The notes under the pieces are model-generated. The model searched no databases. It worked only from the letters and a program-made list of their open reading frames with translations, and was not told the DNA's origin. DNA of 64,000 nt, from sequence record OR544954. One strand, 5' to 3'. The stretch is from Escherichia phage vB_EcoM_EP32a. The translations under genes and the position numbers were made by a program. How positions within the stretch are numbered: the first letter of the stretch is position 1; the number at the start of each line of letters is the position of its first letter. Shown here piece after piece: positions 2,512 through 58,279 of the stretch.

Positions 2512-2925
2512 ATGAAGCTGGAAGATTTACAGGAAGAGTTAGACGCGGACTTAGCTATTGATATGACAAAGTTGCAATATGAGACGGCGAATAATGTTAA
2601 GTTATACAGCAAATGGCTACGTAAGCACTCATTTATTCGTAAAGAAATGTTGCGTATAGAGACTCAGAAGAAAACTGCTCTAAAAGCAAGATTAGACTAC
2701 TACTCGGGACGAGGTGACGGTGATGAATTCAGTATGGACCGATACGAGAAATCTGAAATGAAAACTGTCCTGGCTGCAGATAAAGATGTGCTTAAAATAG
2801 AGACTACTTTACAATACTGGGGAATTTTACTTGAGTTCTGTAGTGGTGCACTTGACGCAGTTAAGTCTCGTAGTTTTGCACTTAAACATATCCAGGATAT
2901 GCGAGAATTTGAAGCGGGGCAATAA
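2512..2925 (+). CDS. uvsY: recombination mediator UvsY
   Basis: 137 aa ORF (MKLEDLQEELDADLAIDM...), T4 UvsY length and sequence. Confidence 0.9.
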   Translation: MKLEDLQEELDADLAIDMTKLQYETANNVKLYSKWLRKHSFIRKEMLRIETQKKTALKARLDYYSGRGDGDEFSMDRYEKSEMKTVLAADKDVLKIETTLQYWGILLEFCSGALDAVKSRSFALKHIQDMREFEAGQ

Positions 2926-44352: not shown

Positions 44353-44426
44353 GGCCCTGTAGCTCAATGGTTAGCAGCAGTCCCCTCATAAGGGAAAGGT
44401 TACCAGTTCGAATCTGGTCTGGGTCA
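44353..44426 (+). tRNA. tRNA with anticodon CAU (Met or Ile2-type)
   Basis: Hand-folded cloverleaf: acceptor ggccctg pairs with ctgggtc (one U-U), D-loop with GG, anticodon loop cuCAUaa, T-arm accag-TTCGAAT-ctggt; D-stem only 3 bp. Confidence 0.6.
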
Positions 44427-44432
44427 TATATT

Positions 44433-44509
<77 letters not shown>

Positions 44510-56341: not shown

Positions 56342-56884
56342 ATGAGAAAAGCACTACTCGCTGGTCTATTTGCTCTTTCATTATCAGCACATAGCTCCGA
56401 GCATACTTTTAGTAATGTCCAACTCGATAACTTGAATTATGCTTATCAGTTTGGGGAACAGTTTTCTAAGGACGGAAAATTTAAAACGCATGAAAATATG
56501 CATAAGAAAGGACTTGGATACATAATGGCCGCAATACTATGGCAAGAATCATCTGCCGGTATTAATCTTAAAGATAAGAAAGGTCACCATGCGTATGGAA
56601 TGTTCCAAAATTATCTACCAACAATGAGGGCAAGAATTAACCAGCTTGGTTATAATATGACTGATGCCCAAATTAAGAAAATGCTATCTAAGCGGTCTAA
56701 TTCAGCCAGATGGGCTTATATCGAATTTTCTTATTGGTTAAATATACATAACGGGGATATAAGAAAAGCTATATCCTCATATAATGCGGGATGGAAGACA
56801 AGTGCTGGAAGTAAATATGCTTCTGAAGTCCTAGAAAAGGCTAATTACCTTAAATCAAATAAACTACTGGAAATAAAAGAATGA
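56342..56884 (+). CDS. secreted lytic transglycosylase-like protein (SLT domain)
   Basis: Signal-peptide-like N-terminus MRKALLAGLFALSLSAHS; SLT family motifs WQESSAG, AYGMFQ, SSYNAGW. Confidence 0.55.
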   Translation: MRKALLAGLFALSLSAHSSEHTFSNVQLDNLNYAYQFGEQFSKDGKFKTHENMHKKGLGYIMAAILWQESSAGINLKDKKGHHAYGMFQNYLPTMRARINQLGYNMTDAQIKKMLSKRSNSARWAYIEFSYWLNIHNGDIRKAISSYNAGWKTSAGSKYASEVLEKANYLKSNKLLEIKE

Positions 56885-57228
56885 CCAAAATGTTGGCTTT
56901 AATAGTTAGCTTGGTTTCATTTAACGCTCTTGCTAATACTACATATACTGATGTAACGGAGTATACAAACAGAACGGCGTCTGATTATTGTGGTAAAAGT
57001 CAAGAGTGTAAAGTAGATTTTTCACAAAAATTGTTATACGCGTATAAAGACGGAGAAAAAGATGGGGCGTCTAGTAGGTTCAAGGCGTCTACCTTAATTA
57101 AAAGATACTATAAAAAATGGCAAATATTAGAATGCTCGGTGGCGGAACCTAAAGATAAGGCAGCATGCAATTCTATGGTGGACCGTCTAGTTGACTCTTA
57201 TAATAGAGGACTTGCAGCAAGTGATTAA
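56881..57228 (+). CDS. hypothetical secreted/periplasmic Cys-containing protein
   Basis: 115 aa; signal-peptide-like MTKMLALIVSLVSFNALA; 4 Cys; ATGA overlap with upstream stop. Confidence 0.5.
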   Translation: MTKMLALIVSLVSFNALANTTYTDVTEYTNRTASDYCGKSQECKVDFSQKLLYAYKDGEKDGASSRFKASTLIKRYYKKWQILECSVAEPKDKAACNSMVDRLVDSYNRGLAASD

Positions 57229-57688
57229 AAACTACATCAAGGGCGATATTGTCGCCCTGTTTTCTAAAGGTAATAATATTGCTCATGGGTGTAATTGTTT
57301 TCATACAATGGGCGCCGGTGTAGCAGGCCAATTAGCAAAGGCTTATCCAAAAATTTTAGAAGCCGATAAACTTCAAACCGAATTCGGAGACGAGTCTAAA
57401 CTCGGGTCTTATTCGGTTTATGAAAAATATTTTAAGACCCATAAAGCTTATTGCTTTAATCTTTATACGCAGTTTGAGCCTGGACCTAATTTTGAGTACT
57501 CTGCTTTAATGAATTGTATAATAGAATTAAATGAATTCGGAAAGAATAAGATAACAAAGCCTGTAATTTATATGCCAAGAATTGGTGCAGGTATCGGTGG
57601 TGGAAACTGGGATGTCATCGAAGAGATTTTAGATACGTATTCCACTAAACTAGAAATTGTGATTGTTGATTGGGAACCATTATTATGA
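57191..57688 (+). CDS. macro-domain protein (TARG1/OARD1-like ADP-ribose hydrolase fold)
   Basis: Motifs GDIVALFSKGNNIAHGCNCFHTMGAGVAG and YMPRIGAGIGGGNW match the two glycine-rich signature segments of TARG1-type macro domains. Start is non-ATG (TTG at 57191 or GTG at 57221), overlapping the upstream gene. Confidence 0.6.
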   Translation: MTLIIEDLQQVIKNYIKGDIVALFSKGNNIAHGCNCFHTMGAGVAGQLAKAYPKILEADKLQTEFGDESKLGSYSVYEKYFKTHKAYCFNLYTQFEPGPNFEYSALMNCIIELNEFGKNKITKPVIYMPRIGAGIGGGNWDVIEEILDTYSTKLEIVIVDWEPLL

Positions 57689-57897
57689 ATATACATTATC
57701 CACATCCATATGACCCAAAGAATAAGGCAGTAATTATTCGTCAATGGGAACGCATTTGCCGTACCAAATGTCCAATTAATAGTCTACATGATGTAGATAA
57801 AGACTACATTGGAACATTCGTTGAATATACCTTTATTGATAAGAAAGGTCGTAAACAGCATGTAGAAGAATACTGCTTAAAGGTGACATGGTTATGA
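57685..57897 (+). CDS. hypothetical protein
   Basis: ORF track starts at 57670; Met at 57685 overlaps the upstream stop (ATGA). Confidence 0.5.
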   Translation: MNIHYPHPYDPKNKAVIIRQWERICRTKCPINSLHDVDKDYIGTFVEYTFIDKKGRKQHVEEYCLKVTWL

Positions 57898-58100
57898 GTC
57901 AAACAAAAATTCTTACAGGTGCTAAATGCGAAAAATGCGAATGGCCTGTAGTTTTTGCTTTATGCAATGACGAAATGGCTTGTGATTTTGATTATTGGTG
58001 TTACTGTTCGAACAAAGGTTGTAGCAATCATAAAGGTGAAGGGTTTTACTCAGGATTTTACCCTTACCCGGATTTCGTTAAAGAAGGTGAACCTAAATGA
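57894..58100 (+). CDS. Cys-rich small protein (putative zinc-binding)
   Basis: CEKCEW...CNDEMACDFDYWCYCSNKGC: 9 Cys in 68 aa; ATGA overlap. Confidence 0.5.
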   Translation: MSQTKILTGAKCEKCEWPVVFALCNDEMACDFDYWCYCSNKGCSNHKGEGFYSGFYPYPDFVKEGEPK

Positions 58101-58279
58101 AATTGACTAAAGAAGAGAAAACTAAACTGTTCGAACTTATCCATGACCTATTGGACGAGCAAGCAGCCACCAATGCGTACGATGAATATGCTCCTTTAAC
58201 AGATGAAGAATATCAAGCATTGATGGAATCATTTGACAGGAAAGAACAAGAACTCATTGACTACGTGAATTCACTATAA
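58097..58279 (+). CDS. hypothetical acidic small protein
   Basis: 60 aa; ATGA overlap with upstream stop. Confidence 0.5.
   Translation: MKLTKEEKTKLFELIHDLLDEQAATNAYDEYAPLTDEEYQALMESFDRKEQELIDYVNSL

What the first reader, a model, noticed from the sequence alone, without database searches (positions are those of the whole stretch)
57191..57688. Phage-encoded TARG1-like macro-domain protein
The ORF carries both glycine-rich signature segments of TARG1/OARD1-type macro domains (GDI...NIAHGCNCFHTMGAGVAG and YMPRIGAGIGGGNW). Such domains bind or hydrolyse ADP-ribose conjugates. In a T-even phage, which itself encodes ADP-ribosyltransferases (Alt, ModA, ModB in T4), a macro domain could reverse host defensive ADP-ribosylation (DarT-type toxins) or tune the phage's own modifications. 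The gene has no ATG start and overlaps its upstream neighbour, so expression may be translationally coupled.
Basis: partly seen in the sequence, partly recalled or inferred. Interest (0 to 1): 0.65.

Follow-up and report, generated by a model that had tools for sequence, protein, structure and literature searches.

The report
Phage macrodomain that counters DarT toxin

Summary
The ORF and both glycine-rich motifs are real. The true start is most likely GTG 57221, not TTG 57191. This gives a 155-aa protein that overlaps the upstream gene vs by 8 nt and the downstream gene tk.3 by 4 nt (ATGA).

The window is a Mosigvirus-type T-even phage. The gene sits in the conserved regB–vs.1–vs–tk.4–tk.3–tk.2–tk.1–tk block and is 85% identical to T4 Tk.4.

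T4 tk.4 has carried an "A1pp phosphatase" annotation in the T4 reference record and in a 2006 comparison. A 2025 preprint showed that deleting it sensitises T4 to DarTG2 and named it AdfM.

A refinement from this work: the TARG1 catalytic pair Lys84/Asp125, and DarG Lys80, are replaced by an invariant Gln84 and by Gly/Ala126. SCO6735, which removes thymidine-linked ADP-ribose, has Gln at the same position.

Side observation: a GC-rich hairpin with compensatory changes lies inside the 5' end of the gene.

Verdict: real, correctly interpreted, already known.

The parts
57221..57688 (+). tk.4 / adfM coding sequence: 155 aa plus TGA stop, a single macro domain
   Evidence: Aligns end to end with T4 Tk.4, 85% identity and no gaps. 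The same CDS is annotated in JK36 and SA79RD. Pfam Macro. AF2 pLDDT 95.2.
57191..57220 (+). In-frame stretch upstream of the real start. It is the mechanical ORF extension from TTG, is probably not translated as part of this protein, and lies inside vs.
   Evidence: T4 has an in-frame TAG directly upstream of its ATG. Related records start at the position of GTG 57221.
57206..57210 (+). Shine-Dalgarno sequence GAGGA, 10 nt before the GTG start, inside the 3' end of vs
   Evidence: Read from the sequence. Conserved at the same distance in T4, EP01 and IME341.
57221..57228 (+). 8-nt overlap GTGATTAA: the start of tk.4 and the TAA stop of vs, arranged for translational coupling
   Evidence: T4 has the equivalent ATGA overlap.
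57240..57258 (+). GC-rich hairpin AGGGCGAT-ATT-GTCGCCCT over codons 7-13, followed by a T-rich run (GTTTTCT). It lies 12 nt after the vs stop codon. Role unknown; it may be an attenuator or terminator for the vs transcript, or a translation element.
   Evidence: Terminator-like hit. Stable fold. Conserved with compensatory changes across clades. 0 of 2000 synonymous recodings reach its energy. Covariation exceeds 498 of 500 shuffles.
57275..57328 (+). First signature, NIAHGCNCFHTMGAGVAG (residues 19-36): the HGCNC motif and the GxG loop that binds the ADP-ribose phosphates
   Evidence: H22, G23, N25, C26 and G33 are invariant or nearly so in 260 family members. Aligns to the MGAG loop of TARG1/DarG and to the HSCNC motif of Poa1p.
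57467..57472 (+). Thr83-Gln84 at the position of the catalytic Thr-Lys of TARG1 (K84) and DarG (K80)
   Evidence: HMMER and MAFFT alignments. Gln is invariant in 260 of 260 sequences. The equivalent Gln85 of SCO6735 is essential (PMC9411070).
57569..57610 (+). Second signature, YMPRIGAGIGGGNW (residues 117-130): the second glycine-rich loop. Gly126 occupies the position of TARG1 Asp125.
   Evidence: Position 126 is Ala or Gly in all aligned family members, never Asp.
57685..57688 (+). ATGA overlap: the TGA stop of tk.4 and the ATG start of tk.3
   Evidence: The tk.3 start is annotated at the equivalent position in JK36, SA79RD and T4.
56881..57228 (+). vs (valyl-tRNA synthetase modifier), the upstream neighbour. 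Its 3' end carries the tk.4 ribosome-binding site.

Best explanation
The gene is the ortholog, in a Mosigvirus-type T-even phage, of T4 tk.4, recently named adfM (anti-DarT factor, macrodomain). It encodes a 155-aa stand-alone macro domain of the ALC1/TARG1-like class.

Expression. The gene lies in the long pre-replicative gene block regB-vs.1-vs-tk.4-tk.3-tk.2-tk.1-tk. Translation starts at GTG 57221, with a GAGGA ribosome-binding site inside vs. It is probably coupled to termination of vs.

Proposed function. The host toxin DarT2 ADP-ribosylates thymidines in single-stranded phage DNA, which blocks replication. The phage protein is proposed to bind the ADP-ribosyl-thymidine and hydrolyse the bond between the thymine and the ribose. 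This would restore normal DNA, release free ADP-ribose and let the phage grow on DarTG2-carrying hosts.

Proposed chemistry. It probably follows the SCO6735 type, not the TARG1/DarG type. An invariant Gln84 replaces the catalytic Lys and would position the distal ribose for attack by water.

What is shown and what is inferred:
- Shown here: identity, fold, class, orthology, active-site make-up.
- Shown elsewhere, for T4 only: tk.4 is needed for resistance to DarTG2.
- Inferred: the same role in this phage, DNA de-ADP-ribosylation as the mechanism, and the role of the Gln.
For: - Sequence family: Pfam Macro above threshold. Profile hits to BT1257, TARG1, Poa1p, DarG and SCO6735 at E = 1e-13 to 3e-16.
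- Orthology: 85% identity to T4 Tk.4 with no gaps, and identical synteny.
- Genetics in T4: a transposon screen found tk.4 as the single significant hit under DarTG2, and a clean knockout became sensitive (bioRxiv 10.1101/2025.11.20.689424). T2 and T4 are naturally DarTG2-resistant, and this does not depend on AdfN (PMC11825919).
- Active site: Gln84 is invariant in 260 of 260 relatives and sits at the TARG1 K84 / DarG K80 position. SCO6735 has Gln85 there, removes DarT-made dT-ADPr, rescues cells from DarT, and is inactivated by Q85A (PMC9411070). BT1257, which that paper reports as 54% identical to SCO6735, is the closest solved structure to the window protein.
- Precedent: an unrelated-lineage phage macrodomain, PhiKZ gp104, removes DarT2 ADP-ribose from DNA in vitro (PMC13309987).
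Against: - No enzymology has been reported for any Tk.4-type protein. The T4 evidence comes from a preprint and is genetic only.
- This phage's protein differs from T4's at 23 of 155 residues and has not been tested.
- The protein lacks the 5-6-residue longer 'mobile loop' that the SCO6735 authors link to high activity on DNA.
- It shares the HxCNC motif with yeast Poa1p, an ADP-ribose-1''-phosphate phosphatase. This is why databases call it a 'phosphatase'.
- It scores far below the DarG family cutoff (32 bits against 250).
- SCO6735 and catalytically dead DarG can also inhibit DarT by binding alone, so hydrolysis is not the only possible route to protection.
Confidence: 0.75

Rival explanations
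1. The protein processes small ADP-ribose metabolites, in the manner of Poa1p. It would dephosphorylate ADP-ribose-1''-phosphate or deacetylate O-acetyl-ADP-ribose. This would serve nucleotide or NAD housekeeping or RNA repair, not the reversal of DNA modification.
For: - The single-sequence PDB search ranks Poa1p second after BT1257 (E = 1e-8), and the two share an I/L-x-H-x-C-N-C motif.
- T4 tk.4 has been annotated as an 'A1pp phosphatase' in the T4 reference record and in a 2006 comparison. JGI names for relatives read 'O-acetyl-ADP-ribose deacetylase'.
- In one metagenomic contig the homolog follows a T4-type RNA ligase 1 gene. In some phages homologs lie next to NAD-salvage genes.
Against: - The only phenotype reported for a Tk.4-type gene is sensitivity to DarTG2.
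- From general knowledge: the T4 RNA repair pathway (Pnkp/Rnl1) does not generate ADP-ribose-1''-phosphate.
- The 80 related viral loci, about half of them T4-like, showed no recurrent gene association other than the T4-like vs/tk block.
- ALC1-like macrodomains often act on several substrates, so this activity could coexist with DNA repair without being the selected function.
Confidence: 0.08
2. The protein protects against DarT2 mainly by binding and blocking the toxin or its product, acting as a stoichiometric inhibitor, and not by hydrolysis.
For: Catalytically dead SCO6735 (Q85A), DarG (K80A) and TARG1 (K84A) all reduce DarT activity in vitro, and SCO6735 is the strongest of the three (PMC9411070). 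The known phage factors AdfA and AdfB appear to block DarT without enzymatic reversal (PMC11825919).
Against: - The protein lacks the C-terminal DarT-binding domain of DarG: it is 155 aa and matches only positions 4-146 of the DarG models.
- Every residue expected for ADP-ribose binding and for SCO6735-type catalysis is invariant across 260 relatives, which indicates selection for enzyme activity.
- PhiKZ AdfM acts catalytically.
Confidence: 0.08
3. The protein reverses ADP-ribosylation of proteins or RNA. The targets could be the phage's own Alt/ModA/ModB marks (including RNAylation), or marks made by other host defence transferases.
For: TARG1 and SCO6735 also remove ADP-ribose from proteins. 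From general knowledge, T-even phages carry three ADP-ribosyltransferases. The gene lies among pre-replicative genes, the phase in which (from general knowledge) those enzymes act.
Against: - From general knowledge: Alt and Mod enzymes modify arginine, a linkage that macrodomains are not known to cleave; ARH-type enzymes do that.
- T-even phages are still blocked by the mRNA ADP-ribosyltransferase system CmdTAC, according to the abstract of that study (PMC11618068).
- No phenotype links tk.4 to the phage's own modifications.
- The HIDEN-SEQ screen found tk.4 depleted specifically in the presence of DarTG2.
Confidence: 0.05

Closest known systems
T4 Tk.4 = AdfM (anti-DarT factor, macrodomain; NP_049723)
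   Same: 155 aa in both, 85% identical with no gaps, and the same position between vs and tk.3. Both share the same Shine-Dalgarno sequence, overlapping start and 5' hairpin. All family-invariant residues are present.
   Different: The start is GTG instead of ATG, and the overlap with vs is 8 nt instead of 4 nt. There are 23 substitutions; for example, IGAGIGGGNW here against IGAGIGKGNW in T4. The anti-DarTG2 phenotype has been shown only for T4.
SCO6735 (Streptomyces coelicolor) and BT1257 (Bacteroides thetaiotaomicron): the Gln-type subclass of ALC1-like macrodomains
   Different: The phage family lacks the 5-6-residue longer mobile loop that defines this subclass. It carries an HGCNC motif where BT1257 has HICND. 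SCO6735 and BT1257 are cellular and free-standing; SCO6735 is reported to be expressed from a RecA-NDp-type promoter.
DarG antitoxin macrodomain (Mtb and Thermus aquaticus DarG) and the DarG-like PhiKZ gp104, which is also named AdfM
   Different: DarG and PhiKZ gp104 have the FPTK catalytic Lys; the window protein has NLYTQ. The window protein scores 33 bits on the PADLOC DarG model, against 133 bits for PhiKZ gp104, and 32 bits on NCBIfam against a cutoff of 250. It has no DarT-binding C-terminal domain and no adjacent darT. BLASTP against PhiKZ gp104 aligns only 23 residues. Two separate lineages therefore carry the same name.
Human TARG1 / OARD1
   Same: It is the top Foldseek hit (E = 4.9e-10), with profile E = 1.3e-15 over the full length. 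The loop between the catalytic position and the conserved Tyr has the same length (8 residues). Both share the PRIGxG…W second motif.
   Different: Lys84 is Gln and Asp125 is Gly here. The covalent Lys-ribose mechanism proposed for TARG1 therefore cannot operate.
Yeast Poa1p (ADP-ribose-1''-phosphate phosphatase)
   Different: By my reading of the partial alignment, Poa1p has Ser, not Gln, at the catalytic position, and it has extra insertions (about 170-180 aa). It acts on a small metabolite in a eukaryotic tRNA-splicing by-product pathway.

Membership tests
Macro domain superfamily (Pfam PF01661) | Profile match above the curated gathering score | tested here: met
   27.4 bits against a cutoff of 22, covering 116 of 118 profile positions.
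Macro domain superfamily (Pfam PF01661) | Three-layer alpha/beta/alpha fold with a central mixed sheet | tested here: met
Macro domain superfamily (Pfam PF01661) | Two glycine-rich loops that clasp the ADP-ribose diphosphate | tested here: met
   MGAG (30-33) and IGAGIGGG (121-128) align to the equivalent loops of TARG1, DarG and BT1257. The core glycines are invariant.
ALC1/TARG1-like macrodomain class | Closer in sequence and structure to TARG1, DarG, Poa1p and BT1257 than to MacroD, PARG or viral macrodomains | tested here: met
TARG1 proper | Catalytic dyad Lys84/Asp125 | tested here: not met
   Gln84 and Gly126 occupy these positions. Across 260 relatives the Gln is invariant and position 126 is only Ala or Gly.
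DarG antitoxin (NCBIfam NF048014, PADLOC DarG) | Score at or above the family cutoff | tested here: not met
   32 bits against a cutoff of 250. PADLOC gives 33 bits, against 133 bits for PhiKZ gp104.
DarG antitoxin (NCBIfam NF048014, PADLOC DarG) | Catalytic Lys80 in an FPTK motif | tested here: not met
   NLYTQ aligns with NFPTK.
DarG antitoxin (NCBIfam NF048014, PADLOC DarG) | C-terminal DarT-binding domain and an adjacent darT gene | tested here: not met
   The protein is 155 aa and matches only positions 4-146 of models that are 329 and 338 positions long. Its neighbours are vs and tk.3.
SCO6735/BT1257 subclass | Gln at the catalytic position in place of Lys | tested here: met
   The BT1257 Gln aligns with Gln84. 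The equivalence SCO6735 Q85 = TARG1 K84 comes from PMC9411070, and TARG1 K84 = window Q84. The link to SCO6735 itself is therefore by transitivity.
SCO6735/BT1257 subclass | Mobile loop about 5 residues longer than in TARG1/DarG | tested here: not met
   BT1257 has a 6-residue insertion relative to the Tk.4 family profile in this loop. The window protein has 8 residues between Gln84 and Tyr93, the same as TARG1.
SCO6735/BT1257 subclass | Hydrolysis of thymidine-linked ADP-ribose on DNA | not testable with these tools
   This needs an enzyme assay.
T4 Tk.4 / AdfM orthologous group | Full-length high identity and conserved gene order vs-tk.4-tk.3 | tested here: met
   85% identity over 155 of 155 residues. 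The same gene block is present in T4, JK36 and SA79RD and in 41 of 80 related viral loci.
T4 Tk.4 / AdfM orthologous group | Needed for growth on DarTG2-carrying hosts | not testable with these tools
   Reported for T4 only.

The most novel reading that the evidence does not exclude
The Tk.4-type proteins could be a phage-borne, mechanistically separate branch of the ALC1-like macrodomains. Their defining features are an invariant HGCNC…NxYTQ…PxIGxG[IL][AG]GGxW signature, a Gln in place of the catalytic Lys, and a short loop. The profile search found about 1,100 clusters at 50% identity (E <= 1e-30). On this reading their substrate range would extend beyond DarT2 damage, for example to other ADP-ribose-based defence products or ADP-ribose metabolites. 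Their dosage would be set by a conserved RNA hairpin just after the start codon, which could also end the upstream vs transcript.
Probability: 0.2. Interest if true: 0.5.

Novelty: already known. Interest (0 to 1): 0.25.

Why it matters
DarTG systems occur in many pathogens and block phages by ADP-ribosylating their DNA. Knowing which phages carry a working counter-enzyme helps predict host range, which is relevant to phage therapy.

This window adds a Mosigvirus ortholog to a factor so far demonstrated only in T4. The comparison shows that the widespread T4-type AdfM lacks the catalytic lysine of DarG and of the PhiKZ-type AdfM. Two different macrodomain lineages, with different chemistry, have therefore been recruited against the same toxin. 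That is a useful pointer for enzymologists, but it is not a new kind of system.

Tried and rejected
- **TTG 57191 as the start.** Rejected. The extension is not conserved, T4 has a stop codon there, and relatives start at the GTG/ATG position.
- **Membership of the DarG family (an 'orphan antitoxin' in the strict sense).** Rejected on score, on the catalytic Lys and on domain architecture.
- **A bacterial DarT partner or cellular context for close homologs.** The two 'bacterial' MAG hits I looked up (P0112, P0119) lie on short phage-like contigs without darT. I did not use the genome-contig scan.
- **Guilt by association in 80 viral loci.** Only the T4-like regB/vs.1/vs/tk block recurs. No NAD-salvage or RNA-repair gene recurred in this set, which is dominated by T4-like loci.
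- **A direct residue-level alignment to SCO6735.** None could be obtained: the PDB tool prints only the top five alignments, and the foldseek top 50 did not list 5e3b. The Gln equivalence to SCO6735 rests on BT1257 and on the published alignment.
- **Promoter scan of 54.5-59.5 kb.** No enrichment over shuffles (16 found, 18.3 expected), so I make no promoter claim.
- **Literature search for a mapped terminator after vs.** Nothing usable was found.
- **Rfam and tRNA scans of the window.** Only two tRNAs were found.
Full report
**1. The observation**

The ORF listing gives an ORF from TTG 57191 to TGA 57688 on the + strand (165 aa). The first in-frame ATG is the Met inside HTMGAG, so there is indeed no usable ATG start.

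The mechanical TTG start is almost certainly not the real one.
- T4 tk.4 begins ATG ATT GTA AAA TAT ATC AAG GGC GAT, and an in-frame TAG lies directly upstream of that ATG.
- The window reads GTG ATT AAA AAC TAC ATC AAG GGC GAT at 57221, in the same register.
- Both phages have GAGGA 10 nt upstream of the start.
- GenBank records that are 98-99% identical to the window annotate the same 468-nt CDS.

The protein is therefore 155 aa (57221-57688). It overlaps vs (56881-57228) by 8 nt (GTGATTAA), and its TGA overlaps the ATG of tk.3 (ATGA, 57685-57688). The layout extends along the vs.1-vs-tk.4-tk.3-tk.2-tk.1 chain, where the annotated neighbours overlap by 4-8 nt.

**2. Where the window comes from**

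The 2.6 kb around the gene is 98.5-99.3% identical to many Escherichia and Shigella T-even phages classified as Mosigvirus, such as AV110, JK36 and SA79RD. Several of these records already call the gene 'macro domain protein', 'phosphatase' or 'Poa1p-like family protein'.

The gene order regB, vs.1, vs, [this gene], tk.3, tk.2, tk.1, tk is that of T4, where the gene is tk.4. The T4 record annotates it as 'phosphatase; contains A1pp phosphatase motif'. The window protein is 85% identical to T4 Tk.4 over all 155 residues, with no gaps. A 2006 comparison of T4-like genomes had already noted the A1pp (macro) domain in tk.4 orthologs (PMC1524935).

**3. What the protein is**

- Sequence. Pfam Macro (PF01661) matches at 27.4 bits against a cutoff of 22, across 116 of 118 profile positions. 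PHROG 335 ('phosphatase') matches at E = 1.5e-66.
- Profile against PDB sequences. A profile of 56 diverse homologs (A1) matches BT1257 (3e-16), TARG1/OARD1 (1.3e-15), Poa1p (8e-15), Mtb DarG (8e-14), SCO6735 (1.6e-13) and Thermus DarG (1.2e-11). Coronavirus Mac1 follows only at 1e-4.
- Model. AlphaFold2 on that alignment gives a confident model (pLDDT 95.2, pTM 0.90) with the expected strand and helix order.

**4. Active site**

The HMMER alignment to TARG1 places window N-L-Y-T-Q over Y-L-I-T-K, so Gln84 lies on the catalytic Lys84. It places P-R-I-G-A-G-I-G over P-R-I-G-C-G-L-D, so Gly126 lies on Asp125.

A MAFFT alignment that includes DarG and PhiKZ gp104 sequences, recovered from tool output and from a paper, puts the same Gln under the FPTK Lys80 of DarG. 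In 260 family members (the window protein plus 259 database relatives), Gln84 is invariant and position 126 is only Ala or Gly. The family signature is HGCNC … NxYTQ … PxIGxG[IL][AG]GGxW.

The same Lys-to-Gln substitution is the hallmark of SCO6735 from Streptomyces coelicolor. In SCO6735, Gln85 occupies the TARG1 K84 / DarG K80 position, and Q85A abolishes activity. The enzyme removes DarT-made ADP-ribose from thymidine, rescues E. coli from DarT, and is proposed to use a water-mediated mechanism (PMC9411070). That paper reports BT1257 as 54% identical to SCO6735. BT1257 has the Gln at the aligned position and is the closest solved structure to the window protein.

The phage family nevertheless lacks the 5-6-residue longer 'mobile loop' that the SCO6735 authors regard as characteristic of that subclass. 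BT1257 shows a 6-residue insertion relative to the phage profile at that point. The phage proteins are thus a branch of their own, combining a Gln-type active site with a loop of TARG1/DarG length.

They also share an H-x-C-N-C motif with yeast Poa1p.

**5. Function**

A November 2025 preprint (HIDEN-SEQ; bioRxiv 10.1101/2025.11.20.689424) reports the following for T4.
- A transposon library grown on a DarTG2 host lost insertions in a single gene, tk.4.
- A clean tk.4 deletion made T4 sensitive to DarTG2.
- The authors named the gene adfM.
- From structural similarity to DarG, they inferred that it removes ADP-ribose from DNA.

Earlier work had shown that T2 and T4 resist DarTG2 independently of the NADAR enzyme AdfN, which counters DarTG1 only (PMC11825919).

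Given 85% identity, identical synteny and full conservation of the invariant residues, the window gene most likely does the same job. The enzymatic step is still an inference for the whole Tk.4 family.

A 2026 paper gives direct biochemistry for a different phage macrodomain, PhiKZ gp104, which it also names AdfM (PMC13309987). That protein is a true DarG relative. It scores 133 bits on the PADLOC DarG model and E = 9e-25 to Mtb DarG, and it has the FPTK motif. The window protein scores 33 bits on PADLOC, scores 32 bits against a cutoff of 250 on NCBIfam, and aligns with gp104 over only 23 residues by BLASTP. Two lineages with different catalytic residues have therefore been recruited against the same toxin, and both now carry the same name.

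**6. Rival explanations**

- *Small-molecule role of the Poa1p type (ADP-ribose-1''-phosphate or O-acetyl-ADP-ribose).* This explains the database label 'phosphatase' and the shared motif. It has no phenotype behind it, and the 80 related loci show no recurrent gene association to support it.
- *Protection by binding DarT2 without catalysis.* This is possible, because dead SCO6735, DarG and TARG1 inhibit DarT in vitro. However, the protein lacks DarG's toxin-binding domain, and its active-site residues are invariant.
- *Reversal of the phage's own Alt/Mod marks.* This is unlikely on chemical grounds: those marks are arginine-linked (general knowledge). No data support it.

**7. Distribution**

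tblastn finds relatives in 2794 of 50,697 phage records. They occur among T4-like phages of many hosts and also in Felixounavirus, Pakpunavirus, phi92-like phages and others.

The profile search of 1.84 billion cluster representatives finds 1,147 clusters at E <= 1e-30 and 8,472 at E <= 1e-10. The closest 'bacterial' hits that I looked up lie on phage-like contigs and have no darT neighbour.

**8. Side observation: a hairpin inside the gene**

Codons 7-13 (K-G-D-I-V-A-L) form an 8-bp GC-rich hairpin, AGGGCGAT-ATT-GTCGCCCT (57240-57258). A T-rich run follows it, and it lies 12 nt after the vs stop codon.

The hairpin is built from rare codons: AAG 0.20, GGC 0.15, GTC 0.11, GCC 0.12 and CTG 0.10 of their synonymous sets in this window. 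None of 2000 synonymous recodings reaches its energy of -13 kcal/mol.

It is identical in T4 and is kept in diverged clades through compensatory changes:
- AAGGCGAC / GTCGCCTT;
- GGGCGAT / ATCGCCC;
- GGGAGAT / ATCTCCC, in which Gly GGC→GGA is matched by Ala GCC→Ser TCC.

It is absent from clades whose residue 12 is Lys, Glu or Gln.

Over all 51 distinct sequences, the covariation score and the percentage of paired cells each exceed 498 of 500 shuffles and exceed every slid control. These sequences are related, so this is suggestive and not proof.

The hairpin could end or stabilise the vs transcript, attenuate transcription into tk.4-tk, or modulate initiation at the weak GTG start. I could not test any of these.

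**9. Verdict**

It is not new. The domain has been annotated for about two decades, and the anti-DarTG2 role of the T4 ortholog was reported in 2025.

This analysis adds four things:
- the corrected start codon;
- the point that the T4-type AdfM lacks the catalytic Lys/Asp of TARG1 and DarG and carries the SCO6735-type Gln without the long loop;
- the distinction between the T4-type and PhiKZ-type 'AdfM' lineages;
- the conserved intragenic hairpin.

Interest is low to moderate.

Noticed in passing
window 57240-57258 (and T4 L002 about 2853-2871, minus strand): An 8-bp GC-rich hairpin lies inside codons 7-13 of the macro gene, 12 nt after the vs stop codon, and is followed by a T-rich run. It is built from rare codons and is never reached in 2000 synonymous recodings. 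Diverged T4-like clades keep it through compensatory changes, including a paired Gly/Ala→Gly/Ser codon change; other clades lack it. It may be an intragenic terminator or attenuator, or a translation element.
   Followed up: partly
literature; window 57221-57688 compared with PhiKZ gp104: Two unrelated-lineage phage macrodomains are both named AdfM. T4 Tk.4 is Gln-type and only distantly related to DarG. PhiKZ gp104 is DarG-like with the FPTK Lys. BLASTP aligns only 23 residues between them. This is a nomenclature collision that hides a mechanistic difference.
   Followed up: yes
window 56342-58279: The genes from vs.1 to tk.1 are tightly packed, and the annotated neighbours overlap by 4-8 nt: vs.1/vs ATGA, vs/tk.4 GTGATTAA, tk.4/tk.3 ATGA, and likewise for tk.3/tk.2 and tk.2/tk.1. 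This suggests serial translational coupling across six small genes.
   Followed up: partly
window 44353-44509: Only two tRNA genes (Met-CAT and Arg-TCT) are present in the window, whereas T4 has eight (from general knowledge). I did not check this against related genomes.
   Followed up: no
L004 374-3159 (MAG contig JBOGAE010000741.1): In a phage-like contig binned with a Cetobacterium MAG, the Tk.4-type macro gene lies downstream of a T4-type RNA ligase 1 gene, separated by one small ORF. It overlaps the start of a downstream helicase gene with AAA_30/Viral_helicase1 (weak PIF1) domains. This context differs from the vs-tk block and hints at an RNA-repair or DNA-metabolism neighbourhood in some phages.
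   Followed up: no
window 56342-56884; L001 1543-2085: The vs.1 ortholog is labelled 'endoribonuclease (RegB)' in the JK36 record, which looks like a mis-annotation carried over from the neighbouring regB gene. Published Pfam matches for vs.1 are weak hits to SLT transglycosylase (PMC1524935).
   Followed up: no
window 57894-58100: This small ORF (about 68 aa) is the third gene after vs. T4 and related records label this position inconsistently as tk.2 or tk.3. It is cysteine-rich (CEKCEW…CNDEMACDFDYWCYCSNKGCSNH), which suggests a zinc-binding protein of unknown function. It recurs in 19 of 80 related loci.
   Followed up: no
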